From an uncultured Gemmataceae bacterium (GTDB lineage: Bacteria; Planctomycetota; Planctomycetia; Gemmatales; Gemmataceae), in assembly GCA_963750165.1 (NCBI GenBank), contig CAVVPN010000011.1:512001-576000 (forward strand): DNA of 64,000 nucleotides. Reading direction: 5' to 3'. The translations under genes were made by a program, and so were the position numbers. Positions 38,097 through 54,573 of this stretch are shown here, piece by piece (position 1 is the stretch's first letter; the number at the start of each line of letters is the position of its first letter). The notes beneath the pieces are model-generated. The model was not told the origin of the DNA. It worked only from the letters and a program-made list of their open reading frames with translations, and did no database searches.

Positions 38097-40109
38097 GTGG
38101 GCCCGATCACGATGGTTTTCGGAGCAGTGCTGATCGCCCTCGGGGGCGTGGGCTTCGTCTCGACCGGGATGGAGCATCCGACGGCGTTGATCCCGGCGTA
38201 CTTCGGCCTGGCGCTGGCGCTGCTGGGCGGCCTGGCGCTGAAGGACCACCTGCGCAAGCACGCCATGCACCTGGCGGCAATGGTCGGCCTCGTCGGCTGT
38301 ATCGGCGGCCTGGTCATGGTCGTGCTGACGTTGACGAAGGGCGCGATCGAGCGGCCGGTGGCGTTCGGCATGCAGATCGGCATGGCTATCCTGTGCGCCG
38401 CGTTCGTCGGCCTGTGCGTCAAGTCGTTCATCGACGCCCGCCGCGCCCGCAAGCGCCGCGCGGCGGACTCCGCGGCCGAAACGCCGGCGCCGACGCCTGA
38501 CCCCACGGCCGCGGAAGCACCCATGAGCGACCAGCCGCCAGCCGTCAGCCGTCTGCCACCCGTCCCCAACGGCACCTCTGTCGTGTTCCTCCTGCTGCTG
38601 GCGTACAACTATTACGTCCCGTTCGCCGACCTCGATTACGCCTGGCAAATCCGCACCGGCGCCGAGATCGTCCGCAGCGGCGACCTGCGTCCAGCCGACA
38701 CGCTGACGTACACCATCGCAGGCACCCGGCCGCACGACTTCTGCTGGCTGTACGAGGTCGTCCTCTGGGCCGTCTGGAACGTCTTCGGCTACGGCGGCCT
38801 GAAACTGCTGAAAACGCTGCTGGTGCTGGCGCCGCTGCTGGTCGTGGTCTGGCACCTGCGCCGCCAGGGGGTGCGCTGGCACGGCCTTGCGCTGACCCTG
38901 GGCGTCGCGGTCGCGGCGCTGAGCAACCTCTGGAACCTGCGGCCGTTCTACTGCTCGACCGTTTGTCTGCTGCTGACCACCGCCTGGCTGCACGACCACT
39001 GCACCGGCCGCCGGCCGCTGCCGTGGCTGCTGGTGCCGCTGCTGGCGCTGGGCGCCAACTGTCACCCCAGTGTCATCATGAGCCAGGGGTTGCTCGTCGG
39101 GGCGGTCGGCTGGGAGTGGCTCAACGCCCGCCTGCGCTTGAACCCACCGCTGCCGCGGTCGGCCCTGTGGCGGTTGACCATGGTCGGCGTCCTCGGCGTG
39201 GCGGCGGGGTTTCTGAGCCCTGACCCGCTGGACCGCCTGCTGTACCCGTTCCGACCGGAGGTGCGCCACCCGATCATGCGCATCTTCACCGAAATGCAGC
39301 CGCTTTATCGATTCGCCGACACCCCCTGGGCGGTCGTGACCTACGCGGTGGCGGCCGTGACGGCGTTGACGGTCGTGCTGCGCTTCCGTCAGTATCGGCT
39401 CTGGGAAGTGGCCCTGCTCGTGGTCCTGGCGGTGCTGGCCAACACCGCCGTGCGCGCCCTGCAGGACTGGCTGCTGACCATGCTGCTGCTGAGCGTGCCG
39501 CATCTGGTGCTGCTGCTGCGTCGGGCGGCGGAGTATCGGCGGCGATCCCGTTTCGCCGCGCTGCTGCTGCGTGGCGATTGTCTGTGCAAGCGCGTCTGCC
39601 ACAGCCCGCTGTTCCGCTTCCAGCCGTTCTGGCCGCTGGCGGGCCTGGCGGTGCTGGCCGTGGTGTCGCTGACGCCGCCGTGGTGCTGGCGGGTGGAGCG
39701 GCAGGAGGGCGCTGAGCACCCGGCCGGGGCGGTCGCGTTCATCCAGGAGCGCGGCTATTTCGGCCGTTATTTCGCGCCGCCGAACTTCGGGGCCTATCTG
39801 TCGTGGAAGCTCGGCGACCGGGTCAAGGTATACGTGGACACGCGCGGCTTTTACTTCCCGCCGCAGTTGCTGGAGGACAGCGTTTACCTGCCGGCGCTGC
39901 ACGGCGACTGGCGCGAACGGCTCGACCGTGTGCTCGACACCTATCACACGGACTTTTTTTTCCTGGAGACGGACGGGGAACGCGGCAAACTGTGGTTGCT
40001 GCTCAAGCCCCACGTTCGCCACCCATTGTTCCTGGAAAAGGGCGAGAAGGTGGTGCTGCTCAGCCAGGAACAGGTGCGTGCGGCCGTGCGGATGTTGGAG
40101 CGGCGCTGA
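38097..40109 (+). CDS. Small 4-TM protein read in frame into a polytopic membrane protein (second start probably 38523; GT-C-like architecture)
   Basis: First ~125 aa form a 4-TM unit, then an Ala/Pro linker, then DLDYAWQIRTG..WLYEV multi-TM domain with a periplasmic tail (GAYLSW..VYVDTR). Confidence 0.65.
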   Translation: MGPITMVFGAVLIALGGVGFVSTGMEHPTALIPAYFGLALALLGGLALKDHLRKHAMHLAAMVGLVGCIGGLVMVVLTLTKGAIERPVAFGMQIGMAILCAAFVGLCVKSFIDARRARKRRAADSAAETPAPTPDPTAAEAPMSDQPPAVSRLPPVPNGTSVVFLLLLAYNYYVPFADLDYAWQIRTGAEIVRSGDLRPADTLTYTIAGTRPHDFCWLYEVVLWAVWNVFGYGGLKLLKTLLVLAPLLVVVWHLRRQGVRWHGLALTLGVAVAALSNLWNLRPFYCSTVCLLLTTAWLHDHCTGRRPLPWLLVPLLALGANCHPSVIMSQGLLVGAVGWEWLNARLRLNPPLPRSALWRLTMVGVLGVAAGFLSPDPLDRLLYPFRPEVRHPIMRIFTEMQPLYRFADTPWAVVTYAVAAVTALTVVLRFRQYRLWEVALLVVLAVLANTAVRALQDWLLTMLLLSVPHLVLLLRRAAEYRRRSRFAALLLRGDCLCKRVCHSPLFRFQPFWPLAGLAVLAVVSLTPPWCWRVERQEGAEHPAGAVAFIQERGYFGRYFAPPNFGAYLSWKLGDRVKVYVDTRGFYFPPQLLEDSVYLPALHGDWRERLDRVLDTYHTDFFFLETDGERGKLWLLLKPHVRHPLFLEKGEKVVLLSQEQVRAAVRMLERR

Positions 40110-40133: not shown

Positions 40134-40215
40134 GGCGGGTAGGGAATCCGCGCGTCCCCTGGGGCAATCAGGGGGGTCTGTGAAATGAAATGAAATGAAA
40201 CCATCCCTGGCCACC
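40134..40215 (-). ncRNA. Candidate small structured RNA, copy A
   Basis: Follows TTCCCC-17-TACAAT; homologous to 53680-53759; ends can pair; (UUUCA)x4 loop. Confidence 0.5.
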
Positions 40216-40221
40216 TTCTTT

Positions 40222-40250
40222 ATTGTACCGCTCAGCCCGCTCCCGGGGAA
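40222..40250 (-). promoter_or_regulatory. Sigma70-like promoter of candidate RNA A
   Basis: TTCCCC (40250-40245), 17-bp spacer, TACAAT (40227-40222). Confidence 0.55.
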
Positions 40251-40372
40251 CTGCCCTGTGCCCGCGGCCAGGCCGTTCGGGGTGCCCCCACCGGGGCTGG
40301 GAGGAAGAAGCAAACGCCCCTGAGCCCCAGACGCCGGCGCGGGCGGCCCTGCGCTGACTCCTGGGGCTGGGA

Positions 40373-43300
40373 TCAGGATGCGTCGCTCAGCGGTTCCTCC
40401 ACCTCACCGCCGAACACCTCCCGGAAGCCGCGCAGGTGCTCGGCAAGCAACTGCTTCAACTTCACACCCTGCACCTGCTCCTGATGCTGGAAGCGCAGCC
40501 GCAGCAGATCGCCCTGGCTGTGCGGCTTGATCTCCGGCCCAACGCCGAGCTTGTCCACCGCGCTCAGGTTGAACTGACCGCGTTTTCCCAGGAATCGACA
40601 ATCGAGGCTGTGCGGATCCTTGGTGCGCCACTGCGCCCAGCTGCGGCCGACGCCCGGCACCTTGATGGTGATGCTGTCGCGCGTCTCCCAGCGCACGGTC
40701 AGGCCCGGTTCGACCTCGCGCAGCACCTGGAGCAGGCTCGCCAGGACGCCGCGGTCCCAGTACACCTTGCGGCCGGGCGGGAAGCCCTTGTCGCCGAGGT
40801 GCCAGCGCTCACCGTTGACCTTCCACGGCATCACATCTTCTGGCTTCGTCCGCAGCCGCTTGAGGTTGTCGTTGAACTTCTGCACCGCTTCCTTGAGGAA
40901 TTGCTTGAACGCCGGCGTGTCGATCTCGCTGAGGCGGTGGACGAGCACGGCGACCTCCTGCCACGGCCCGCGGCGGTTGGCGACCTGCACGCGCGGCTCG
41001 CTGCCGTAGACCTCCAGGCCGGGCGTGTCGTTCAGTGGCGGGATGCCCAGGCTGCTGTTGAGTTCGTCCTGTTTGAAGCCGTTCTTGCCGACGCGGAACA
41101 CCAGCCGCACCAGCCATTCGCGGCCGGTCATGGCGTGCAGGAACCAGCCCTGCGTCTTCTGGGCCGCGGCGATCTCGATGACGGTGCGGTGGTTCCAGTT
41201 TGTCGCGCTGAAGGTGCCGAGCGCGTGGACCTGCTGGTCAATCCAGTCGATCAGCTGGCCCTCCCAGCGGGCCGGCTTGCCGTCGCTGGTGACGCGCAGT
41301 TCCGTGTGCCAGCGGCGACCGTCAGTCTCCCACGGCATCTTCGCGTCCTTGCCGACCGCCTCCAGCGGCACGTCGTCCTGTCGCTCCGCCGCCGCCCGGT
41401 GCGGGTCGAACTTGACGCGCTCCTGGTGCGGCCCCGCCTGCAAGATTTCCGCGAGGATGACGCCCGTATGCGACGCCGCGACCTGCGCCACCGTCTCCGG
41501 CGTCCCCTCGGCGACGATCCGGCCGCCGGCCGCACCGGCTTCGGGGCCGAGGTCGATCAGCCAGTCGGCTGTCTTGATCACGTCCAGGTTGTGCTCCACC
41601 ACGATGACGGTGTTGCCAAGATCGACCAGCCGGTTGAGCACGTCGAGCAGCTTGCGGATGTCGTCGAAGTGCAGGCCAGTGGTCGGCTCGTCGAGCAGGT
41701 AGACGGTGCGGCCGGTGTTGGGCCGGGCCAGTTCCGCCGCCAGCTTCACGCGCTGCGCCTCACCGCCCGACAGCGTCGGCGCCGCCTGCCCCAGCGCCAG
41801 GTAATCGAGGCCCACGTCGGCCAATGTCTGGAGCACGCGGCGAATCTTCGGGATGTTGCCGAATAACTCCAGCGCCTCGCGGACGCGCATGGTCAGCACG
41901 TCGGCGATGGTCTTGCCCTTGTAGCGCACCAGCAGCGTTTCGGGGTTGTAGCGCTGCCCCTGGCAGATGTCGCACTCCACCCACACATCCGGGAGGAAGT
42001 GCATCTCAATTTTTTTCTGACCGTTGCCCTCACACGCCTCGCAGCGGCCGCCGGGGGCGTTGAAGCTGAAGCGCTTGGCCTGGTAGCCGCGCACCTTCGA
42101 CTCCGGCAACTGGGCGAACAACTGGCGGATCAGGTCGAAAACGCCGGTGTAGGTCGCGGGGTTGGAACTCGGTGAGTTGCCGATGGGATCCTGATCGACG
42201 TTGATGACCTTGTCGATTTTTTCCAACCCGAGGATGGCGTCATGAGCGCCGACGAGCGTGCGCGCCCGGTGCAGTTTACGGGCGAGGCTGCTGTAGAGAA
42301 TCTCATGGACCAGCGACGACTTGCCCGAACCGCTGACGCCCGTGACGGCGATGAACGAGCCCAGCGGAAAGGCCACGTCAATGTCCTTGAGGTTGTTCTG
42401 CCGCGCCCCCTTGACGATCAGGGAATTAGCCACAGAGGACACAGAGGGCACAGAGGAAGAAGAGGAATTGGTTTTGTCTCCTTTGGTTTTTCTCTCTGTG
42501 TCCTCTGTGGCTAAGATTCGGCGATTGGTCGGCACCGGGATGGCCTTTTTGCCAGAGAGGTACTGGCCGGTCAGCGACGCCCTGGCGCGCTGCACCTGCT
42601 TCGGCGTGCCGGCCGCGGTGATCTCGCCGCCCTGGTCGCCGGCTCCTGGCCCGAAGTCCAGCAAATAATCCGCCGCGGCGATGACCTCGCGGTCGTGCTC
42701 CACCAGCAGCAGCGTGTTGCCAAGGTCGCGCAGGTGCGTCAGCGCTTTGAGCAAACGGCGGTTGTCACGCGGGTGCAGGCCGATGGTCGGCTCGTCCAGC
42801 ACGTAGAGCACGCCGGTCAGGCCGCTGCCGATCTGACTCGCCAGGCGGATGCGCTGCGACTCGCCGCCCGAGAGCGTCGGTGTCGGTCGGCTCAGCGTCA
42901 GGTAATCCAGGCCAACATCGACCAGGAACTGCGTGCGATTCGTGATCTCGCGCAGCAGCTCTCCCGCCACCTGCCGTTGCTCCTTCGACAGCTTGAGCGC
43001 CTTGAAAAGTTGCAGCGTTTGACCGAGCGGCAGGTCGCACAACTGGCCGAGCGTCTGGCCCTGGAAGCGGCACGCCGCCGCGTCGTCGCGCAACCGTGAG
43101 CCCTGGCAGGCGGAGCAGGGCACTTCGCTAACGACCTGATCGAGCTGGCTGCGGTATACGAAACTGACACGCGACGCCTCATCGACCGCCGGCAGCAGGC
43201 CCTTGTACTGGAACTTGACGGTCGGCCTGCCCTGGCTCGCGGCCGCCGGGTCGAGCGCAATCCACGCCTCACCGGTGCCGTGCAGGATGGCCCGCTGCTG

Positions 43301-46300
43301 GGCCGGCTCCAGCCGCTCATACGGCGTGTCCAGCGACAGCCCGAGGTGCTGGGCGAGGGCGGCGGCGAAGCGCAGGAAGGTGGTGTCCTCACTCAACGAC
43401 GGCCAGGCGGCAATGGCCCCGTCGCGCAGCGAGCGTTGCGGGTCGCGCAGCAGCGCCGCGGGGTTGGCGCCCTTCTGCACGCCAAGGCCCTCACAGGTCG
43501 GGCACCAACCGAGGGCGTTGTTGAACGAGAAATGGTGCGGGCTCAGCGGCTCGAAGCTGCGGCCGCAACGGTCGCAGGCGAAATGCTGGCTGAAGCGCTC
43601 AACCTTCCACTGTGACTCCTCGCGGTTGTTGTCCACGTGGGCGACGTGCATCACGCCCTTGCCGAGGTCCAGCGCCGCCTCGACCGCATCGGCGAGCCGG
43701 CTGCGCTGGCTGTGGCGGACGATGATGCGGTCCACGACGACCTCGACCTGGTGCTTGCGGCGGTGGTCGATGGCCGGCGGCTCCTCGACGTTGTACGACT
43801 TGCCGTCCACGCGCATGCGCAGGAAACCGGTGCGACGGATCTCGTCCCACAGCGCCTCATACGAGCCCTGGCCCTTACGCTCGACCGGTGCCAGCAGGTA
43901 GAGCCGTGTGCCTTCCGGCAGTGACATGATCTTGTCAATGATCTCGTCGGCGGTCTGGGTGCCGATGGGCGTCTGGCAGGCGGGGCAGTGTGGCTGGCCG
44001 AGCCGCGCAAACAGAATGCGCAGGTAGTCGTAGATTTCAGTGACGGTGCCGACGGTCGAACGTGGGCTCTTGCTGGTGGTCTTCTGTTCGATGCTGATGG
44101 CCGGTGACAGGCCGCTGACGTGTTCGACGCGCGGCTTTTGCAGCTGGCCCAAAAACTGGCGAGCGTAGCTGGACAGCGACTCGACGTAGCGGCGCTGGCC
44201 TTCCGCGTAAATGGTGTCCATCGCCAGCGACGACTTGCCGGAACCGCTGGGACCGCAGCAAACGCTCATCTGCTCGCGCGGCAGCGTGACGTTGACGTTC
44301 TTAAGGTTATGTTGCTGCGCCCCCTGAACGGTCAGATGGGTGATGATTTCCCCGCCTTCCTTCCCATTCCGCCGAGCTTTTCCCTTCGTTGCAACTTGCT
44401 TCGCGTTTCGCGGCGCCAGCGGCCCGGTCAGCAGTGCTTGCCCCGTGTGGGAACGCTCACACTTCGCCACGTCTTCGGGTGTGCCGACACAGACGACCTC
44501 TCCGCCACCGCTGCCGCCCTCTGGCCCGAGGTCGATGACCCAATCGGCGGTTTTGATCACGTCCAGGTTGTGCTCGATGACCACGACTGTATTGCCGCCC
44601 GCGACGAAGCTGTGCAGCACCTGCAACAGCTTGTGAATGTCCTCGAAATGCAGCCCGGTCGTCGGTTCGTCGAGGATGTACAGCGTGCGCCCGGTGCTGC
44701 GCCGGCACAGTTCGCGGGCCAGCTTGATGCGCTGCGCCTCGCCGCCGGACAGGGTAGGGGAGGGCTGCCCGAGTTTGAGGTAATCCAGGCCCACGTCGTG
44801 CAGCGTTTGCAGCATGGCCCGGACCCGTGGCACGTTCGTGAAATGCTCCAGCGCCTCCTGCACGTCCATCTCCAGCACGTCATGAATGTTCTTGTCCTTG
44901 AAGCGGATTTGCAGTGTCTCGCGGTTGAAGCGGCGGCCCTCGCATACCGGACACGTCACCCACACATCCGCGAGAAAGTCCATCTCCAGCCGGTTGGAGC
45001 CGTTGCCCTCGCACGCCTCGCAGCGGCCACCGGGACGGTTGAAACTGAAGCGCCCCGGTTTGTAACCGCGGATTTTGGCCTCCGCCATCAGCGCGTACAG
45101 CGACCGGATCTCGTCGAAGACCTTGATGTAGGTGGCCGGGTTGGAACGCGGTGTGCGGCCAATGGGGGACTGGTCGATGTCAATCACCTTGTCGATGTGC
45201 TCAGCCCCGACAATGCGATCGTGTGCCCCGACCTGTCGGCCGCGGCTCGACCCGACTTCTTCCTCATCTTCGTCAGCGCCGGCGCTGACGCCGAAGCCCT
45301 GAAGCAAGCCTTCCTTCAAGATGTCATTGATGAGCGACGACTTGCCCGAGCCGCTGACTCCCGTCACGCACACGAACTGACCCAAGGGAATATCGACCGT
45401 GACGTTTTTCAGGTTGTTGTGCCGCGCCCCGACGATTTGCAATTTGCGCTCGGTCTGCGGCCGGCGCTGCTCCGGAATGGCGATCTGCTTGCGGCCGCTC
45501 AGGTACTGGGCCGTCAGGCTCGTCTTGTGGCCGAGCACGTCCGCGTAGGAGCCCGCGGCCACCACCTCGCCGCCGCGCACCCCCGGACCGGGGCCGAAGT
45601 CCACGAGGTAGTCCGCGGCGCGCATCGTGTCCTCGTCGTGCTCCACGACGACCACGGTGTTGCCCATGTCGCGCAGCCGCTCCAGGCTGCGTAGCAGCCG
45701 CTCATTGTCACGCGGGTGCAGACCAATGCTCGGCTCGTCGAGGATGTAGAGCACGCCCACCAGGCCACAGCCGATCTGGCCCGCCAGGCGGATGCGCTGG
45801 GCCTCACCGCCGCTCAGTGTCGGGGCGGTGCGGTCGAGCGTCAAATAATGTAGGCCGACGTTGAGCAGGAAGCCGAGACGGCCGCGAATCTCCTTCAGCA
45901 CCTCCCCGGCGATGACGCCCTGCGTCGGCGTCAGCGTTTGCTTCAAGGTGCCGCGCTCCGGATCGAACCACAGGGCCAGGTCGCCGATGGGCATGGCCTC
46001 CAGTTCGATCAGCGTTTTGCCAGCGACGCGGCAGGCGCGGGCCTGCGGGTTGAGGCGCTGGCCCTGGCAGCTCGGGCAGCGCAGCACACGCATGTACTTT
46101 TCCAGCTGCATCCGCCGTGGCCCGGCAGCGGTCTTCTTGAAACTGCTGAGCAGCTGCGGGATGACGCCCTCCCACTTGCCGCCGTGCTTCCAGACGAAGC
46201 CGCCGCGTTTCTTCCACTCGAACGTGATGTGCCGGTCGCCGGTGCCGTGCAGCAGGGCGTCCTGGTGCTCCCGCGGCAGTTGCGCCCACGGCTTTTTCAG

Positions 46301-47341
46301 GTCGATGCCGAGCGTGGCGGCGACGCCCTCGAAAATGTGCCGTCGCCACCGGCCCATGCCGCGCAACGGGCCGACCAGCGGAATCGCGCCGTCAAAGAAG
46401 CTCACGTACGGATCGGGGATGAGCAGGTCCGGGGCGAAGGTGTACTGTGCGCCGAGGCCGTCGCAATCGGGGCACATGCCGTGCGGGCTGTTGAAGCTGA
46501 ACAGCTGCGGGCTCGGCGGCTCATAACTGCGGTCGCAGTGCGTGCAGGCGTAGTGCGCCGACAGCAGCAAGTCCTCTGTTGCCGGTTCCTCCGCTTCCTG
46601 CTTGGCCGCGGGCTCTGCCGCGCGCTCGACGGCGATGATGATGGCGCCTTCCGCAAGGTTGAGCGCCTGATCGACCGCCTCGGCCAGCCGCGGCCGCACC
46701 TTGCTGTCGCTCTTCAATCGGTCGATAACCACTTCGATGTGATGCTTGATGCGCTTGTCGAGTTTCAGGTCGTCGGTCAGGCGCACGACCTGGCCGTCCA
46801 CGCGCGCCCGCATGAAGCCGCGGCGCAGCAGGTCTTCAAACAGGTCTTTGTACTCGCCTTTCTGGCCGCGGATGACCGGCGCCAGCACCAGAAAGCGCGA
46901 GCCCTCGGGCAGCGCCAGGATGCGCGCGATGATCTGCTCGCGCGACTGGGCGGTGATGGGCCGGCCGCACTGCGGGCAGTGGCCCTGGCCGATGCGCGCG
47001 AACAGCACGCGCAGGTAATCGTGAATCTCGGTGATGGTGCCGACCGTCGAGCGTGGGTTGCGGCCGGCCGTCTTCTGCTGGATGCTGATGGCCGGCGACA
47101 GGCCCGCGAGGTAATCGACATCGGGTTTTTGCAGCTGGCCTAAAAATTGGCGGGCGTAGCTGGACAGCGACTCGACGTAACGGCGCTGGCCCTCCGCGTA
47201 GAGCGTGTCGAAAGCCAGCGATGATTTACCGGAGCCGCTAACGCCGGTGAAGACGACGAGCCGGTTGCGCGGCAGGTCGAGATCGACGTTGCGGAGGTTG
47301 TGTTCGCGGGCGCCGCGGATGACGATCGTTTGGTTATCCAT
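40373..47341 (-). CDS. uvrA: Tandem-fused (double) excinuclease ABC subunit A with C-terminal extension
   Basis: Two complete UvrA modules: 4 Walker A GxSGSGKS, 4 LSGGE signatures, Zn fingers; about 2320 aa. Confidence 0.95.
42426..42514. repeat. CACAGAG-type palindromic element inside uvrA
   Basis: Perfect 21-bp arms TTAGCCACAGAGGACACAGAG around an AT-rich spacer; reading frame intact. Confidence 0.88.
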
Positions 47342-47349
47342 AACGCTGT

Positions 47350-47916
47350 TCAATCCTCAAAGAAGGCCCGCACGGGGCAGCGGAATCCGGCCAACACTTC
47401 GTCGTCTGTCAGTTCCTGGTCCTCGGTCAGCAGGAAGCATTCATTGATTTTGCAGAAGACGTAGACGGTGCGCGTCTCCGGGAAGACAAGCCACCACTGG
47501 CGCGTGCCCGCGCGGAAAAAGTCCAGCCGCTTCACTTCCAGGGCCAACGCCTCGTCGCTGGGGGATACCACCTCAATGGCCAGGTCCGGGGCGATCCGGC
47601 AGTGGCCCGGCGGATTGCCACCTTTCGGCAGCCGCGCCCGGGCGATGAAGCTCACGTCCGCGTAACGGACCTTGTTGGCCTCGGGGAAAATCTGAAAGCC
47701 CAGATCGGGGGTAAACACTCTCCCCAATTTATTAGTGTGCGCGTGGAGTCCGATGACCCTGAGAATATTGGCGGCCACCTCGCAGGAATCCATGCCCATG
47801 TTGCGCTCCACCAAGTGGCCATCGATCAATTCCCAGCGATGTCCACCATCCTCCAGCAGTTCTTCCGGCGTGTGCGTTGTCGCGCCGGTTCCCTCTGTGG
47901 TTTGCTCCTCCAGCAT
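47350..47916 (-). CDS. Uma2 family putative endonuclease
   Basis: WELIDG, RYADVSF, PDLAIEVVSP, AGTRQWWLV. Confidence 0.88.
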   Translation of the reverse strand: MLEEQTTEGTGATTHTPEELLEDGGHRWELIDGHLVERNMGMDSCEVAANILRVIGLHAHTNKLGRVFTPDLGFQIFPEANKVRYADVSFIARARLPKGGNPPGHCRIAPDLAIEVVSPSDEALALEVKRLDFFRAGTRQWWLVFPETRTVYVFCKINECFLLTEDQELTDDEVLAGFRCPVRAFFED

Positions 47917-47935
47917 GGTCGCCCTCCTTTCGGCT

Positions 47936-48613
47936 TCAAATCCCAATCAGCCCGCGCACCGTCGGCACCGACACCTGCTCCAGCGTCGGCACCACCAGGT
48001 CCGCCCCCGCGGCGCGAAGCCGATCCTCCGCGTGATGGCCGACGAACGTCACCGCGATGCAGCGCATGCCCGCCGCCTTCGCCGCCTCCACGCCGGCCAC
48101 CGCGTCCTCCAGCACCAGCGACCGCGCCGGCGGTACGCCCAACTTCTGCGCCGCCACCAGGAACACTTCCGGGTCCGGCTTGCCACGCTGGGTGTCTTCC
48201 ATTGCTACAATGGCTTCCAGGTAGGGCGTGATGCCGGTTAGTTGTAGAATCAGGTCGAGGTTGCCGCGCGGAGCGCTGGAGCCAATCGCCTGCCGGAAGC
48301 CGGCCGCGTGCAGCGCCTCAAGCAGCGGCCGCACCCCCGGCAACAGCTCCACCCCTTGCTGGGCCGCCGCGCGGTAGAAATGCTCCTTGCGCTCGCCCAG
48401 GTCCGCTACCTCCGATTCGGTCAGGTGTTCGCCGAACAGGTAGCGCAGGATTTCCGGATTGCGACGGCCGAAGGTGGCGGCGAAGTCGGCGCGGGTGAAG
48501 GGGCGGTCCAGTTCCTGGGCCAGGCGGACCCAGGCGGCGAAGTGCAGGTCGGCCGTGTCCACCAGGGTGCCGTCCATGTCCCACACGACCGCTCCAGGAG
48601 GCGTCAGTGCCAT
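47936..48613 (-). CDS. HAD-family phosphatase (beta-phosphoglucomutase-like)
   Basis: DMDGTLVD, GKPDPEVF, EDAVAG. Confidence 0.9.
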   Translation of the reverse strand: MALTPPGAVVWDMDGTLVDTADLHFAAWVRLAQELDRPFTRADFAATFGRRNPEILRYLFGEHLTESEVADLGERKEHFYRAAAQQGVELLPGVRPLLEALHAAGFRQAIGSSAPRGNLDLILQLTGITPYLEAIVAMEDTQRGKPDPEVFLVAAQKLGVPPARSLVLEDAVAGVEAAKAAGMRCIAVTFVGHHAEDRLRAAGADLVVPTLEQVSVPTVRGLIGI

Positions 48614-48982
48614 CGGTGTCCTTTCGCGTTGACGGGAAGTGCGCCCGGCATTCCGGGATTCTTCCCTTTCTCTACGGTTGTCATGTATGTTTGGACAGCT
48701 AGGTTTATTATACCGCGGCGAGCCAGATACACGAGGCCAGCCGCGACGACGGTTCCGATCAACCCCAATACAACGCTCCATCTTCCGAGATTGCGCATCG
48801 GGTCAGAGTGCCGCCGAATTCCGCACGGCGGTTCTCCGGCGCGAAAACCAGGAAGGTTTTGACAACGCACTCCGGGTTTGGCATCATAAACAGCAGTATC
48901 GGTGAAGGTTACGAAAACGCCCGTCGGCAGCCGTTTTGGGAACTATTGCCGAGACCCCTACGTCAAAGAGTGTAAGAACGCC

Positions 48983-49564
48983 GTGAGCGCCGACGACCAC
49001 CGGTTGATAGCGGACTGCTTGCGAGGCCAAACAGAGGCTTTCGGCGAGTTGGTCCGCACCTACCAGGACCGTCTGTACAACACGGTGTATCGGCTGCTGG
49101 ACAATGCGGAAGATGCCCAGGACGTGGTGCAGGACGCCTTCCTGAATGCGTACCAGTCCCTGGACAACTTCAAGGGAGACTCGCTGTTCTTCACCTGGCT
49201 GTACCGCATTGCCATCAACACCGCCATCAGTTTCAAGCGCAAGCAGCGGGCGGTGGTCAGCATGAACGCGGCGGGCGAACACGGGCCGGCCCTGGACCCG
49301 ATGGACCCGTCCGAGTTCAGCCAGCCGGGACACGCTCTGGAACAGCGTGAAGAGGAGCGCCGGATTCAGGCTGCCTTGAACCGACTCTCCCCCGAGCACC
49401 GGATGGTGCTCATCATGAAGGACATGGAAGGCCAGAAGTACGAGACCATGGCCGAGGTGCTGGGCGTGCCAATTGGCACCATCCGCAGTCGGCTTCATCG
49501 CGCCCGCATGGAACTCCGTGAGATATTGCAACAGGACGAAGAGGCCCAGCCCCGCGGGCCGTGA
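48983..49564 (+). CDS. ECF sigma-70 factor
   Basis: AQDVVQDAF, FFTWLYRIAIN, PIGTIRSRLHRAR. Confidence 0.92.
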   Translation: MSADDHRLIADCLRGQTEAFGELVRTYQDRLYNTVYRLLDNAEDAQDVVQDAFLNAYQSLDNFKGDSLFFTWLYRIAINTAISFKRKQRAVVSMNAAGEHGPALDPMDPSEFSQPGHALEQREEERRIQAALNRLSPEHRMVLIMKDMEGQKYETMAEVLGVPIGTIRSRLHRARMELREILQQDEEAQPRGP

Positions 49565-49671
49565 CCCCTCGGGACTGTGGAAGCGTTGTCGCATTTTGAA
49601 GGGCAGCTGGATCCGTCCCATCCGGGCATCCGCGGTGGACGCCCGGCGGAACCGCGATCCCTGAGACCGCC

Positions 49672-50838
49672 ATGCTTTCGGAACGCCAGTGCGAACTGAT
49701 CTCGGCTTTCCTGGACGGTGAGGTGACTCCCCGCCAGCGCCAGGTCGTTCTCCGGCTGCTGCGCCAGTCGAGCGAGGCTCGCGCTCTGCTGCAGCGGCTC
49801 CAGGAGAACGCCTTCTCGCTTCACCAACTGTCCCCCCGTAAACTGCCGGATGACTTCGCGCAAAAAGTGCTCGGCGTCATCCAGGCGCGCGGCCTGCAAC
49901 CCGCGCAGCCGGCCACGCTGCCATTCCGCCCGAAGTCCATCCCGGCCTGGCTGGGCACCGCCGCGGCTGCCGCCGTGCTCCTGCTGGTGGCCGCCGGTTC
50001 CTACATCTTCTTCACCGAACTGACCGGCAGCCCCAACCCGCCGGATGACGGCTTCGTCCAACAGCCGGCGGACGAACGGCCCCAGCCCGCGCCGCCCGAG
50101 AAACTGCCGGAGCCCAAACCGGAACCGCCGCCGCTGGCCACGAAATTGGCCCTGGGGGCGCTGGCCCAGTTCGCCGAGCCGATTGAAATCAAGCTCACCT
50201 GGGAGCACGTCGGCAAACCGGAGGCGAAGACCCGGGTGGTGCAGGAGTTGAAGCAGGACACGTCCTATCATGTCAAGGTGTCCGTGCCGCACCACGGCCG
50301 GGCGCTGGCATCGCTGAAGACGGCCATGGAGCGGCGCGGCATCAAGGTCTTCACGGACCCCGCCGCCGACAAAATCATCAAGAATCGGCAGCCGCACCCG
50401 AAAACCACCTTCGTGCTCTACACGGAAAACCTGGAACCGGAAGAGGTGGCTGGCCTGCTCGAGCATCTCGGCAAGGACAAGAACATCGCGCCGGTCACTG
50501 CGAAGAATCGTGGCGGCTTGCTGCTCGCGCCGATGGACACCGACCAGCGCAAGGAGATGTCCAGGCTCCTCGGCTTGAAGGGCAAACAGCAGCTGGAAAA
50601 ACCGGTCCAGGGGCGATTGCTGGATTTGCCGATGGCGGTGCTCAACGATCAGAAGCTCGTGAAGACGAACTCCAAAACCGCGCAGCCCGCCCGGGAGCGC
50701 TTTGCCGTGGTGCTGGCGGTCACTCCGGGGGCCGCGTTCAATCCCGCCGCCAACCCCGCCATCCGGGATTTCTTGAACCGCCGCAAGCACGCGGCGCCGG
50801 GCAACTTGCAGGTGATGGTCGTGCTCGACGCGGTGTGA
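49672..50838 (+). CDS. Putative membrane-anchored anti-sigma factor
   Basis: ELISAFLDGEV anti-sigma-like N-terminus (no ZAS Cys/His motif), one TM helix, Pro-rich linker; directly after the ECF gene. Confidence 0.7.
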   Translation: MLSERQCELISAFLDGEVTPRQRQVVLRLLRQSSEARALLQRLQENAFSLHQLSPRKLPDDFAQKVLGVIQARGLQPAQPATLPFRPKSIPAWLGTAAAAAVLLLVAAGSYIFFTELTGSPNPPDDGFVQQPADERPQPAPPEKLPEPKPEPPPLATKLALGALAQFAEPIEIKLTWEHVGKPEAKTRVVQELKQDTSYHVKVSVPHHGRALASLKTAMERRGIKVFTDPAADKIIKNRQPHPKTTFVLYTENLEPEEVAGLLEHLGKDKNIAPVTAKNRGGLLLAPMDTDQRKEMSRLLGLKGKQQLEKPVQGRLLDLPMAVLNDQKLVKTNSKTAQPARERFAVVLAVTPGAAFNPAANPAIRDFLNRRKHAAPGNLQVMVVLDAV

Positions 50839-50856
50839 CGAGATCGGGGTGGAAGC

Positions 50857-50904
50857 GAAAAAACCCCGCGCCGGCCTCTTCGGCTGGCGCGGGGTTGCGG
50901 TTTT
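50857..50904. terminator. Bidirectional intrinsic terminator
   Basis: AAAAAACCCCGCGCCGGC-loop-GCTGGCGCGGGGTT between convergent genes. Confidence 0.7.
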
Positions 50905-50911
50905 CACCGAC

Positions 50912-53442
50912 TCACCGGAACAGGCGATCAATTTCCCCATCGCTCAGGGTTTCGCAGCCCTCACCCGGGTCGATGACCAGGGCCTTGCCCGAGGGCGTCA
51001 CCCAGAGGACGCGGTTGCCCAGCTGGAACACCTCGGCCAGTTCCGGGTGCCGCTCCAGCATGCGGAAGTACGCCGCGCTCAGCGCCTTGACGGTGACGCG
51101 CTTCATTTCGGTCTTGAAGCCCTCGTCGGTCCAGACGCCGTTGACCTCACGACAGGAGCGGCCCGCCACCTGGCGCACCGTGGCGGCGGTCACCTGGCTC
51201 TGGGTGCGCAGCTCGTTCAGCTGGACCGACTGATCGACGCCGGCGCGGCCAGCCTGGGCGTAACCCTGGAAACCAAGGCCGCCGACCCCCGCCGGAATTC
51301 CTGTGGTCGGGGTTCCAAAGTCCACAGCGGCAATGCCTCCGGTGGCCAGCGGCTTATTCGGAACCGCCCACGTCATTTGCGGAGCGACCTGCACCGGGGC
51401 GAACTGAATTCTCCCTCCCGGCAGGGCAGGGGGGGCGGAGGACGGCAAGGAGCCGGTGCTGTTGATGTTGAAGCCCGGCGCGATCATGGAGGAACCGTTC
51501 GTCGTGTTACTCAGGTCGATCGTACCCTGTCCGTGAATGTTGTAGTTCTGATAAGTGCCGCCCGAGGGGGCCGCAGCGGTCGGTCCCGAAATGAACCGCA
51601 GCGTGTTGGTCTTGGTTGGCGGGGCGGCAGGCAGTGGCCGGTTCAGCGCCACACCCGGCGCAGCATCCGGCAGCACCAGGTAGCTGGTGTACGGTGTCGT
51701 AATGCCGTGCTTCTTCGCCAGCGCCACCACCTCGTCCTTCAACTCTGTCGTCTCGCCGTTGACGCGAATCTGGTCGAGCAGATAGCCGACCTTGCGCCGC
51801 GCCCACAAATCCTCCACGAACGCCTTGTCCTTGCCGGTCTGGCCAGGAAAGCGAGTTTCGTAGACGAATTCCTTGCTGTCGCCGTCCACGGTGCCGCTCA
51901 GGGTGATGGTCGCCGAACCCGTGCCTTTGAAGCGGCCGAGCACCACCAGCTGGCTGCCGTGGAACAGGTCCGGCAGCTGCGGCGGATAGATTTCGGAGAC
52001 CGAAGCCTGCCACATTTTTTTGACGTATGGCGAACTGCCGCCCTTGGGCGGCCCCCACGGCTGGCCCTTGACCGTCAGCTTCAGGTTCGTCAGCACCGGG
52101 TTGCTGATCTTGCTGTACAATCCGCTGACCTTGGCCTCGATGTCCTCGTGCTCGCGGACATAGGTGGACACGGAGCGCGTCTTCTCGGCCAGCTGGTCGA
52201 GGAGCACGGCGTTCACGTCGTCGCCGACGCCGAAGGTGAAGATGCGCGTGCTGGTGGTATTGCGGCCCATCACGTTCTTGACGATGGCCTCGGTGTTCGA
52301 TTCGCCGACGTTCGCCTGGCCATCGGTGAAGAACACCATTGTGAAGCAGCGGTGCGGATCCTGCGAACGCATGTCGAGCGCGGCGAGCAGGGCGTCGTTG
52401 ATGTTGGTGCCGCCGTTCGCCTGCAACTCCTCGACCCACTGACGGGCGTCGTTGAGGTTCTTCGGCGTGGCGCTGGTGAGGTTGTCGCGGTATTTGGTGA
52501 CGCTCGTGGCGAAGTGGAGGATGCCGAAACGGTCCTTCGGGCCGAGGTTACGCAGGCAGAATTGTAGCGCTTTCTTCGCCTGGTCGATGCGCTGCCCCTG
52601 CATGCTGCCGGAGGTGTCGAGCACAAACACCATGTCGCGCGGCACCTGCTGCGTGTGCGACAGCTCCGCCCGCGGCGAAATCAGCATCATGAAATGGCCA
52701 TCGCTGCCGGACTGCGGCCGGTGCATCAGCGTCGTCAGGCCGACATCCCTGTTGGCGGTCGTGTAGTAGAGCTGCAAATCCTTGTCGAGCCGGGTCTGAC
52801 CGCACTGGAAGTGGACGCGAGCGTGCCGGTCACTGACGCGCTCAACGGTGACCTTGTGCGACGGGCTGTAAATGTTCTGGATGGGGTGTTGCGCCTTGAT
52901 GGTGGCGTCGAACGAGAACTGCGCCAGCGTTTTCGCGGTGTTGGCGTCCGCCTTCAGCGGGTAGACGTACTCGACCAGGCCCGCGTCGCTGCTGGCGATG
53001 GACGTGAAGCTGATGGCCAGCTTCTGGTCGCCGTTGGCCGGCACCGGGAAGACGCGGACGCGCAGCAGGTTGTTGCCGAGGTACTCCAGCAGCCCCGGAT
53101 CCTTCATGCGGCGGACGACATCGGTGTAGACCTGCCGGGCCTGCTCGGCCTGCACCAGTTCGCCGGGCACTTCCTTGCCGTCCACCCACATGACGAACTT
53201 CTTGACGCTGGCGCCCTTGGGCACCGGGAAGACGTAATCGGCTTCGAGTTGCTGGCTGGTGTGGTTGTGGAAGGTCTGCACCACCTTGGTGACGGCAACC
53301 TGGTCCTCGACGGTGACGTTGACCTGATGGCGGACGAGCTGCAACGGCGTGACGCCCGGGTCGGTGGGCATCAGGTGGCCCTGGGCGCGGCGCTGCCGGC
53401 GCCGGCCAACAGGGCCAGCAGGACGGAGAGCATACGTCGCAT
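50912..53442 (-). CDS. Secreted VIT + vWA domain protein; frameshift near 53375
   Basis: VIT domain (LEADYVFPVP), vWA MIDAS DTSGSM, GGTNI, FTDG, ITTPYTSYLV; signal peptide MRRMLSVLLALLAG in the adjacent frame. Confidence 0.88.
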
Positions 53443-53643
53443 GAGCAATCCTTTCCTCGCGGAGACGTGGGGGTCAGGGATGTCGGTACGGGAAGGGGGT
53501 CGTGTCGAAATGCCGGCCGGGGGTGTACCGTGAGGGGTGCGGAAGTGCAAGGGCAAAAGCTCAGTGTCCCAGGGCCGTTCGCTTTTTCCTCCTGCCCGGA
53601 GAAGGAATTCACCCGAGCCGTCCTGGCCGCGGGCGCAGGACGG

Positions 53644-53673
53644 TTCCCCCGGAAGCGGACTGGGCGGTATAAT
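53644..53673 (+). promoter_or_regulatory. Sigma70-like promoter of candidate RNA B
   Basis: TTCCCC (53644-49), 18-bp spacer, TATAAT (53668-73). Confidence 0.6.
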
Positions 53674-53679
53674 AAAGAA

Positions 53680-53759
53680 GGTGGCCAGGGATAGTTTCGT
53701 CTCGTTTCATTTCACAGACCCCCTGCCATCTCTGGGGGCTGCGCCCGCTCCCTACCCGC
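53680..53759 (+). ncRNA. Candidate small structured RNA, copy B
   Basis: Homolog of 40134-40215; faces the 3' end of the DUF4058 gene. Confidence 0.5.
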
Positions 53760-53853
53760 AACCCCAAACCGTGCGCCGTCCGGAGAGTCCCAGCAAACGG
53801 GAAGGAAGCAGCGATCTACCCTGTTACCGCCTACGTATGACGATAGGCCGCTT

Positions 53854-54573
53854 CTAACTGAGGTACGCTGCCGCCGCAGCGCGACCGTAAGTTTGCTCCA
53901 GGTCCACGAACATCGCATCCTGCAGCGACAGTGATAACCGCATCCGCGGCAGCGGCGCGCCCACCGTCAAGGACCGGCGCCAGATGGCCAGGAACCGTCC
54001 GCCGTTGGGGGCGGGCTCTCCAACACGGTAACTGACGGCGCACGGCACCGGACAGGCCGGCTGCTCCACGCGCAGTTCCTCGGCGATCCGATCCGCGAAG
54101 GAAAAACGCAATGGTCGGCGGTGAACGTCCACGAGCAGTAGGTGGACGCCCTTGAGGAGGAAAGCGGCATAGGTGCTCGCATACGCGGCACACGCCGACG
54201 GCCGATCCTTGTTGCGTGGCGACACCAACTCGACAGCGGCGATGAGTCGGCCCTGATTCTCGACGAGCAGCGCCGGCTCGCCGGACAGCGTGCTGACGGC
54301 GATTTCCTGGTCCGGCTCCTCGTCAGGCTCGCCCGGCGCGGCGGTACTCGACTCGGCCTCTGACAATGACGACCCATTTCCCTGGGGCACGGCGCGCACC
54401 CCCACGTCGGGCCGCTCCTCTCCCGGGGCGCCGATCGCAAACGTGGGAGTCATGCCGATGTAGGCGCGATACCCGTCCGGCAAGCGCGGCTTGATCCAGT
54501 AAAGCAATTCCACGATCCATACTTGATGGACGCCCTCCCAACCAGAAAGCGTGGCCCAGTCGTGCAGCGGCAT
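53854..54573 (-). CDS. DUF4058 family protein (PD-(D/E)XK-like)
   Basis: MPLHDW..H..WI, RPDVGV, AVELVSPRNK, GVHLLLVD. Confidence 0.8.
   Translation of the reverse strand: MPLHDWATLSGWEGVHQVWIVELLYWIKPRLPDGYRAYIGMTPTFAIGAPGEERPDVGVRAVPQGNGSSLSEAESSTAAPGEPDEEPDQEIAVSTLSGEPALLVENQGRLIAAVELVSPRNKDRPSACAAYASTYAAFLLKGVHLLLVDVHRRPLRFSFADRIAEELRVEQPACPVPCAVSYRVGEPAPNGGRFLAIWRRSLTVGAPLPRMRLSLSLQDAMFVDLEQTYGRAAAAAYLS

What the first reader, a model, noticed from the sequence alone, without database searches (positions are those of the whole stretch)
40134..53759. Two-copy orphan promoter plus ~80-nt structured RNA with a (UUUCA)n loop: candidate new small RNA family
Seen: 40134-40325 (minus) and 53568-53759 (plus) are diverged homologs. 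Each has TTCCCC-17/18-TAYAAT, then AAAGAA, then GGTGGCCAGGGAT-(TTTCA-like pentamer)x4-CAGACCCCC-hairpin-TCCCTACCCGC. The 5' GGUGG..AGGGA can pair with the 3' UCCCU..CCGC. The inner C-run/G-run hairpin is kept despite different loop sequences. The pentamers vary only as UUUCA/UUUCG/UCUCG. Each copy points at the 3' end of a convergent gene, so neither is a leader for a downstream CDS. Inference: an independently transcribed RNA with a closing stem and a pyrimidine-rich single-stranded loop, possibly a protein-titrating or base-pairing regulator. I do not recognise it as a named family.
Basis: partly seen in the sequence, partly recalled or inferred. Interest (0 to 1): 0.8.

Follow-up and report, generated by a model that had tools for sequence, protein, structure and literature searches.

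The report
Orphaned leader of a wandering helicase
The two look-alike stretches belong to about 50 scattered copies of a promoter plus 5' leader that, in a related genome, sits in front of a multicopy helicase-like gene which this genome lacks; they look like gene-less offspring of an undescribed mobile unit that are still kept intact.

Summary
Both copies are real, but the family has 52 hits genome-wide, not two, and no Rfam match. The -10 box shows a sigma-70 pattern, and the T-x-T-C-R repeat is strictly kept (0 of 402 deviant cells at nine columns). The proposed closing stem has no covariation; only the inner hairpin does. In genome G108 a collinear element is the promoter and leader of a multicopy AAA_25 (RepA/SF4-like helicase plus predicted winged helix) gene at 4 of 5 loci, and 10 of 11 gene-less copies there also carry the promoter. 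That gene occurs in 104 of 252 family genomes but not in this one. Best reading: gene-less derivatives of a lone-helicase mobile unit, the repeats being its DNA-binding sites (inferred). A CsrA-type ANGGAX hairpin (48 of 50 copies, this genome only) allows domestication as a small RNA, but folding buries the GGA. No RNA data exist.

The parts
40135..40258 (-). Copy A: promoter + leader unit (family A)
40245..40250 (-). Copy A -35-like hexamer TTCCCC (weak; 17-nt spacer)
40222..40227 (-). Copy A -10 box TACAAT; start inferred near 40215
   Evidence: start site is inference
40200..40215 (-). Copy A 5' segment with C-AGGGAU-G (CsrA-type ANGGAX loop); an insertion relative to the G108 gene leaders
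   Evidence: consensus from PMC4005645 passages
40180..40200 (-). Copy A (T-N-T-C-R)n-C repeat tract, followed by the AGACCCC/ACACCC motif shared with AAA_25 leaders
40156..40174 (-). Copy A C-run/G-run hairpin, the only helix with covariation support
40135..40153 (-). Copy A GCGC..TCCCT segment, matching the 3' part of the G108 AAA_25 leaders
40268..40322 (-). Extra ~55-nt module with imperfect inverted ends upstream of copy A; seen before a few other copies
53636..53823 (+). Copy B: promoter + leader + 3' tail ending in a decayed GAACGRCCCTG-type motif
53644..53649 (+). Copy B -35-like hexamer (18-nt spacer)
53668..53673 (+). Copy B -10 box TATAAT; start inferred near 53680
   Evidence: start site is inference
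53680..53692 (+). Copy B 5' segment; AGGGAU loop present but closing G replaced by A (one of the 2 of 50 that fail the CsrA pattern)
53695..53715 (+). Copy B repeat tract
53720..53738 (+). Copy B C-run/G-run hairpin
53749..53759 (+). Copy B 3' TCCCTACCCGC
53570..53626 (+). Extra ~55-nt module with imperfect inverted ends upstream of copy B
40373..47341 (-). Flank: double-length uvrA, ends about 115 nt upstream of copy A
38127..40109 (+). Flank: convergent gene with no Pfam family, downstream of copy A
50912..53371 (-). Flank: VIT-vWA gene divergent from copy B
53854..54513 (-). Flank: DUF4058 gene convergent with copy B

Best explanation
The element is the gene-less front end (about 40 bp upstream of the -10 box, promoter, 5' leader) of a dispersed one-gene unit found in this bacterial family. 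The full unit is promoter + leader + a ~370-aa AAA_25 protein (RecA-fold, RepA/SF4 helicase-like core with a predicted C-terminal winged helix) and ends near the stop codon. SHOWN: collinear homology with the leaders of that gene in G108; gene-linked and gene-less copies side by side in G108; no such gene in this assembly; lineage-specific copy groups; strong constraint on the -10 box and on T-x-T-C-A. INFERRED: the short direct and inverted repeats are double-stranded DNA sites for the unit's own winged helix (operator or iteron-like), and transcription opens the site for the helicase. Gene-less copies were then copied in trans, as MITEs are, and this lineage later lost the enzyme. The copies very likely still make a short RNA; what now maintains them is open.
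For: Alignment A6 is collinear from the -35 to GCGC..ATTCCCT; 35, 29 and 37 of 50 copies score above the 95th percentile of shuffles against three G108 gene leaders. 4 of the 5 G108 subfamily loci fetched show the element 100-190 nt before the ATG; the fifth is cut by the contig end. 10 of 11 gene-less G108 copies have the same -10 at 35-48 nt (background 5.8%). Across the family, ACACCC lies upstream of 22 of 53 gene copies against 0 of 50 downstream and 0 of 53 on the other strand, and 44 of 50 family-A copies carry it or AGACCCC. The two-unit repeat is upstream in 11 of 54 against 1 of 50. 16 of 53 leaders carry a private 6-mer at least four times against 4 of 50, and repeat types partly follow protein clades. 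In sister family B (17 copies here) the same motif is an 11-4-11 palindrome with G-U 8 against A-C 7 mismatches, as for a double-stranded site. The gene is patchy and multicopy: 104 of 252 family genomes, some copies with stops, 3 of 201 elsewhere in the phylum. Its fold matches phage replicative helicase modules and RSF1010 RepA. Neighbours are unrelated (67 and 33 proteins), and one copy sits antisense between an NADHdh gene and a 4Fe-4S gene (read as nuoH-nuoI).
Against: Full-length homology to a gene leader rests on one genome (G108). The family-A profile gives only 5 weak hits (7-10 bits) among 54 leaders, one of them a repeat of a G108 locus. Only 4 of 23 AAA-like loci had the strict two-unit motif, and 10 of 26 ACACCC leaders had a -10-like hexamer. 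No empty site, target duplication or end signature was found, so mobility is inferred from patchiness and copy number. The protein has no known nuclease or recombinase domain. Winged-helix identity rests on the model's topology and weak MarR/IclR-like features (0.75-0.76). The tree is star-like (7.57 of 9.59 substitutions/site on terminal branches, closest pair 89%), yet the nine columns never change, which mobility alone does not explain once the enzyme is gone. Only 1 of 15 copies with the 3' tail has ATG at the place where a start might have been. G123 has 28 core copies and no gene hit (69% complete).
Confidence: 0.62

Rival explanations
1. Domesticated small RNA family: whatever its origin, each copy is now kept because its ~85-nt transcript titrates CsrA through the 5' ANGGAX hairpin, or another RNA-binding protein (RRM, KH) through the UCAY repeats. 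Compatible with the leader origin.
For: C-A(N)GGAN-G in 48 of 50, varying only at N and X or losing N, the positions PMC4005645 calls variable (passages). The stem arms pair in 132 of 135 cells (6 of 5000 permutations). The genome has 7 CsrA and 5 RRM genes. The hairpin is an insertion relative to the G108 leaders. Constraint persists without the helicase gene. Precedent: 14 FopS sRNAs bound by RbpB (PMC11697453 passages).
Against: The hairpin has probability above 0.5 in only 2 of 45 full-length folds, and GGA is mostly paired. There is one site per RNA. Stem covariation rests on one or two events. The 11 G108 copies lack it. CsrA and RRM genes are just as many in genomes without the element. 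The same letters also occur as a ribosome-binding site.
Confidence: 0.2
2. One reading: a free-standing small RNA with a 5'/3' closing stem that presents a pyrimidine loop for base pairing, for example to AUG/GUG start regions, with no link to a mobile gene.
For: The tract is single-stranded in 43 of 45 folds and the closing stem exceeds 0.5 in 23 of 45. UUUCAU/UCAC is complementary to start codons (sequence). G-U outnumbers A-C on the transcribed strand (22 against 8 in the inner hairpin).
Against: No covariation in the closing stem (2912 of 5000 permutations). Perfect 10-nt complements occur in 14 of 6420 start windows against 41 of 32100 internal windows. Homology to gene leaders. The core lacks a promoter in G115 (0 of 13), G123 (0 of 19), G024 (1 of 10) and G056/G007/G049 (1 of 16).
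Confidence: 0.07
3. Classical MITE moved by a DDE transposase through 11-bp terminal inverted repeats (CAGGGYCGTTC ... GAACGRCCCTG), carrying a promoter as Correia elements do.
For: The 5' motif is at -37 in 21 of 50 and the 3' motif downstream in 15 of 50 (background 7%), both in 12 of 50, giving a ~180-190 bp unit. MITEs can carry promoters (PMC3184786 passages).
Against: No target duplication longer than 3 nt. The ends are the most decayed part and the inside the best kept. No insertion sequence with such ends among the repeats printed or among facing motif pairs. The 3' motif may be old coding start.
Confidence: 0.06
4. Host regulatory module: the repeats bind a host transcription factor or the promoter serves neighbouring genes, especially the divergent upstream gene.
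For: The upstream gene is divergent in 40 of 51 against 58% expected (p=0.003).
Against: Neighbours share no function, distances range from -12 to over 300 nt, and the core is multicopy (10 or more) in only 6 of 252 family genomes.
Confidence: 0.05

Closest known systems
Bacterial MITEs with promoters (Correia/CREE, RUP, ERIC) and the transcribed repeat bcr1 (PMC3184786, passages read)
   Same: Short, dispersed, intergenic, non-coding, multicopy, lineage-restricted; carries a promoter; derived from a larger mobile unit.
   Different: No target duplication, decayed ends and conserved interior. The parent encodes a helicase-like ATPase, not a transposase, and the promoter reads into the element.
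RSF1010 RepA / SF4 helicases and phage primase-helicase modules (Pfam AAA_25, PF13481)
   Same: The linked protein has the AAA_25 family (12 of 12), weak sequence and clear fold likeness to RepA, T7 gp4, RadA and phage replicative helicases. Origin-binding winged helices with iterons in such systems are recalled, not from a call.
   Different: Stand-alone ~370-aa gene without a primase domain, in several dispersed chromosomal copies, each with its own promoter and leader.
CsrB/RsmY/RsmZ CsrA-sponge RNAs
   Same: ANGGAX loop on a C-G-closed stem, with N and X variable; own promoter; several copies; host has CsrA.
   Different: One site instead of many, predicted mostly buried, no intrinsic terminator, absent from the G108 relatives.
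FopS paralogous sRNAs of Bacteroides (PMC11697453, passages read)
   Same: Dispersed multicopy family with housekeeping promoters, of similar size; host has RRM proteins.
   Different: About 50 rather than 14 copies, patchy rather than conserved across the family, no evidence of start-codon targeting here, traceable to a gene leader.
Rhodopirellula-1 motif (PMC2864571, table and supplement passages)
   Same: Multicopy candidate RNA motif reported for Planctomycetes.
   Different: The alignment rows seen in the supplement share no visible sequence with this element (compared by eye).

Membership tests
Any Rfam 15 family | Covariance-model score at or near gathering threshold | tested here: not met
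   0 hits in the window; none on the element in 13 loci at E<=10
MITE (DDE type) | Terminal inverted repeats | tested here: inconclusive
   Imperfect 11-bp pair in 12 of 50
MITE (DDE type) | Target-site duplication | tested here: not met
   0-3 nt in all pairs
MITE (DDE type) | Autonomous IS with the same ends | tested here: not met
   None among printed repeats or facing motif pairs
REP/REPIN (RAYT, Y1 transposase) | Element flanks its Y1 transposase gene | tested here: not met
   Motif in 2 of 30 Y1 loci, one being a family-B copy beside a fragment
Tyrosine-recombinase site module (dif/att-like) | Linked recombinase gene | tested here: not met
   Nearest of 36 recombinase hits is 21.6 kb from any A or B copy
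CsrB/Rsm sponge RNA | ANGGAX in a stem-loop | tested here: met
   48 of 50 by sequence
CsrB/Rsm sponge RNA | GGA exposed in the folded RNA | tested here: not met
   Unpaired above 0.5 in 4 of 45 (prediction only)
CsrB/Rsm sponge RNA | Multiple GGA sites and intrinsic terminator | tested here: not met
   One conserved site; no terminator at the two window copies
CsrB/Rsm sponge RNA | Binds CsrA and relieves repression | not testable with these tools
   Needs CLIP or gel shift
Small RNA gene (generic) | Discrete transcript with mapped ends | not testable with these tools
   No RNA holder listed
Small RNA gene (generic) | Covariation-supported structure | tested here: inconclusive
   Inner hairpin 3 of 5000 and 2 of 1000; closing stem 2912 of 5000; related copies inflate such tests
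Leader of the AAA_25-wHTH unit | Collinear homology to gene-linked leaders | tested here: met
Leader of the AAA_25-wHTH unit | Gene or remnant downstream in this genome | tested here: not met
   No hit downstream of 68 A and B copies; best genome-wide hit 20 bits, another clade
Mobile element | Empty-site allele or recent identical copies | tested here: inconclusive
   No close relative held; no joint across a copy among those shown; closest pair 89%

The most novel reading that the evidence does not exclude
A class of selfish unit that spreads with a lone SF4/RecA-fold helicase-winged-helix protein and no transposase or integrase, each lineage co-evolving its own short repeat code in a transcribed leader. 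Gene-less leaders are its MITE-like satellites, and in this genome about 50 of them outlived the enzyme, gained a CsrA-binding hairpin and became a small RNA family: a traceable birth of a multicopy bacterial small RNA from a mobile element's leader.
Probability: 0.27. Interest if true: 0.88.

Novelty: new variant of a known kind. Interest (0 to 1): 0.62.

Why it matters
It ties an anonymous intergenic repeat to a protein family and points to an unstudied, patchy, multicopy helicase-like gene in 104 of 252 genomes of one bacterial family, with a testable protein-DNA code (each clade's winged helix against its own repeat). If that gene moves itself, it would be a route of transposition without a known transposase. 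The orphan copies, kept under selection after loss of the gene, are a clean case for how mobile leaders turn into regulatory RNAs. Searches that did not turn up a description (listings only); most subscription journals are not in that library.

Tried and rejected
Expression: no RNA holder listed; this says nothing either way. Laying three DNA runs showed one identical contig and no empty-site joint among the rows shown. Rfam: none. BLASTN in 40 relatives: one weak coding hit. The covariance model R1 had only 4 pairs because RNAalifold chose a minor helix; it found weak hits in 2 of 150 family genomes, with 29 candidates scored per genome. Viral contigs, plasmids and phages: no match. The metagenome pattern gave 11 hits; none had the promoter form and two looked like inverted-repeat relatives. 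Small protein: the forward frame is broken by 5-nt and 1-nt indels, and minus-strand ATG frames are inconsistent. Start-codon base pairing: no real enrichment. Alternative helices (5' with C-run; G-run with 3' end): no covariation. In G108, pairing of the 5' end with the post-repeat segment was not significant (767 of 5000). Y1/RAYT and tyrosine-recombinase links were rejected. The dynamin-cassette note e1-7688124 was followed, but the one dynamin-like locus found held no motif and may not be that locus. Y RNA, 6S-like RNA, TnpB right end, parS, dif, rut site and P4-type iterons were recalled from memory as resemblances and not tested beyond the above. Rows dropped: 1 of 52 hits had no -10; 50 of 51 were used for promoter counts; 45 of 51 were aligned (6 truncated or degenerate, some of which break the 'invariant' columns). 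For AAA leaders, 11 duplicates and short flanks were removed. Gene calls are from my own dicodon model. Scripts 73, 81 and 86 stopped part-way; only their printed parts are used. Supplement S1 and S3 of PMC2864571 could not be read.
Full report
Observation. Both stretches are as described, to the base, each facing the 3' end of a convergent gene. They are not a pair: blastn gives 40 matches in the genome, and an iterated profile gives 52 at E<=1e-3 on 7 of the 12 contigs. 51 could be anchored on a -10-like box, 50 were used for promoter counts, and 45 full-length copies were aligned (A2). Mean identity is 72%, the closest pair is 89% and the two window copies are 74%. There is no Rfam match. 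The Rhodopirellula-1 motif looks different by eye (PMC2864571, table and supplement passages).

Promoter. The -10 hexamer keeps T, A and the last T in 49, 48 and 47 of 50 copies, against 38, 41 and 44 in the middle; TTC of the -35 is kept in 44 of 50. That TT lies on the TT peak of ordinary intergenic -10 sites in this genome, whose commonest -35 is TTGAC. The generic scanner scores neither window copy, and finds no terminator. So the promoter is supported by its mutation pattern, not by consensus strength, and transcription was not observed.

What is conserved. The repeat unit is T-N-T-C-R. Nine T, T and C columns show 0 deviant cells of 402, against 41 of 134 at N and 581 of 3511 overall; parsimony gives 0 changes against 6-11. 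Some of the six dropped copies do break these columns. Only the C-run/G-run hairpin is supported (3 of 5000 and 2 of 1000), and relatedness inflates those tests. Two alternative folds both leave the tract open (43 of 45).

Context. By my own gene calls, the downstream gene is on the same strand in 30 of 51 (chance) and the upstream gene is divergent in 40 of 51 (p=0.003). 67 neighbours of 34 copies share no family. A sister family B (17 copies) has the same core behind an 11-4-11 palindrome instead of a promoter; its mismatches show no strand bias, which suits a double-stranded DNA site. A and B together explain 85 of 111 motif sites in the genome.

Relatives. The three-unit core occurs in 28 of 252 family genomes, with 10 or more copies in six (G000 40, G123 28, G115 20, G024 18, G108 11, G056 10); the reversed control hits 3 genomes once each. 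300 genomes from the rest of the phylum have at most 3. Named records with the core are titled Gemmataceae or Planctomycetales. Only G108 has the promoter form (10 of 11); the others mostly carry inverted-repeat forms.

The link to a gene. Of 10 low-copy loci examined, 2 lay directly before an AAA_25 gene. Following this up, 4 of 5 G108 loci of one AAA_25 subfamily carry the whole element as promoter and leader, 100-190 nt before the ATG; the fifth is cut off. These leaders align collinearly with family A from the -35 to the 3' GCGC..ATTCCCT, family A having an extra 9-11 nt at the 5' end; 29-37 of 50 copies beat the shuffle 95th percentile. The subfamily (A5) occurs in 104 of 252 family genomes with 1-7 scored copies, some with stops, and in 3 of 201 others. 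It is absent from this 93%-complete assembly even as a remnant. Its leaders share ACACCC on the coding strand (22 of 53 against 0 of 50) and often carry their own repeated 6-mers (16 of 53 against 4 of 50). Repeat types partly follow protein clades, the four G108 copies form one clade, four of five G044 copies another, and similarity between G108 copies with complete genes stops near the promoter and near the stop codon, without target duplication. The model (pLDDT 75) has a RecA-type core and a helix-helix-helix-wing C-terminus. The best matches are Rad51/RadA/RepA in the PDB and phage replicative helicase modules in BFVD.

How it most likely works. Shown: family A is the promoter-leader of this one-gene unit without its gene. 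Inferred: the winged helix binds the repeats just downstream of the promoter, as operator or origin; transcription and the helicase open the DNA; copies, with or without the gene, land at new intergenic sites by an unknown step; this lineage then lost the gene. Weak points: one genome carries the full homology, the family-A profile barely detects other leaders, no empty site or end signature was found, and no cutting or joining enzyme is in sight.

What remains unexplained. Most divergence lies on terminal branches (7.57 of 9.59), yet the -10 and the repeat columns are intact, so something still selects on each copy, or copying was error-prone except at needed sites. The G000-specific 5' insert forms C-A(N)GGAN-G in 48 of 50, matching the CsrA/RsmE loop described in PMC4005645 (passages), and the genome has 7 CsrA genes; CsrA is common in this phylum (PMC13443453 passages). 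Against a sponge: one site, predicted buried, absent in G108, and CsrA is as frequent where the element is missing. Start-codon pairing found no support. A classical MITE fails on target duplication and on a parent IS.

Novelty and verdict. No description was found in nine literature searches (listings only) or in the scan's notes. In kind it works like a promoter-bearing MITE (PMC3184786 passages) but fails that membership test, and its parent is a helicase-like gene. Verdict: a real feature, first reading partly right; new variant of a known kind; interest 0.62, rising to about 0.88 if the lone helicase proves to mobilise these units.

Noticed in passing
G000, 17 sites, e.g. C12:523167 (L314), C3:744561 (L312): Sister repeat family B: 11-4-11 palindrome of the same motif, a second palindrome, the core and a GC-rich tail; no promoter; also seen in G108 (L298-L300).
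   Followed up: partly
window 40373-47341 (minus): uvrA is about 2320 aa, a tandem double UvrA (two interaction and two DNA-binding domains).
   Followed up: no
G000 (L203, L211, L213, L218 and three more): Seven CsrA paralogues; 5-7 in each of five family genomes tested. One lies 1.6 kb from a family-B copy, and one has a ribosome-binding region identical to the element's 5' hairpin.
   Followed up: partly
L019 (G000:C12:482400-482545): A family-A copy with an intact promoter sits antisense in the junction of an NADHdh gene and a 4Fe-4S gene (read as nuoH-nuoI).
   Followed up: partly
L318:2190-2435: 82-aa Y1/IS200-like transposase fragment facing a family-B copy, next to a low-GC HEAT-like region.
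   Followed up: partly
L323:3-1718: SpvB-domain plus FG-GAP gene (looks like a toxin-complex B component) divergent from a family-B copy.
   Followed up: no
L420/L426 (G000:C12:313367-314008) and L411 (C4:1200092-1200904): Two AAA_25 genes of another clade, both apparently broken; one lies directly after a tyrosine recombinase gene.
   Followed up: partly
G123 copies (L379-L390): Very uniform repeat: core, ACCCC, a TCTCA-A-TGAGA palindrome and a CAA-N6-TTA segment that recalls a Xer-type site (recalled, untested).
   Followed up: no
L367 / L400 (G130:C358): Single copy with a strong -10 and the core followed within 25 nt by an ATG of a nucleotidyltransferase-like reading frame.
   Followed up: partly
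G115:C9:358437-362325 (L336, L344, L349): Three Y1 transposase genes in tandem; 16 Y1 hits in that genome.
   Followed up: no
G000:C1:494094-503962: Long 144-bp-period coding tandem repeat region.
   Followed up: no
G307, G333, G300: The AAA_25 subfamily occurs outside the family in longer frames (414-815 aa), possibly fused to a primase.
   Followed up: no
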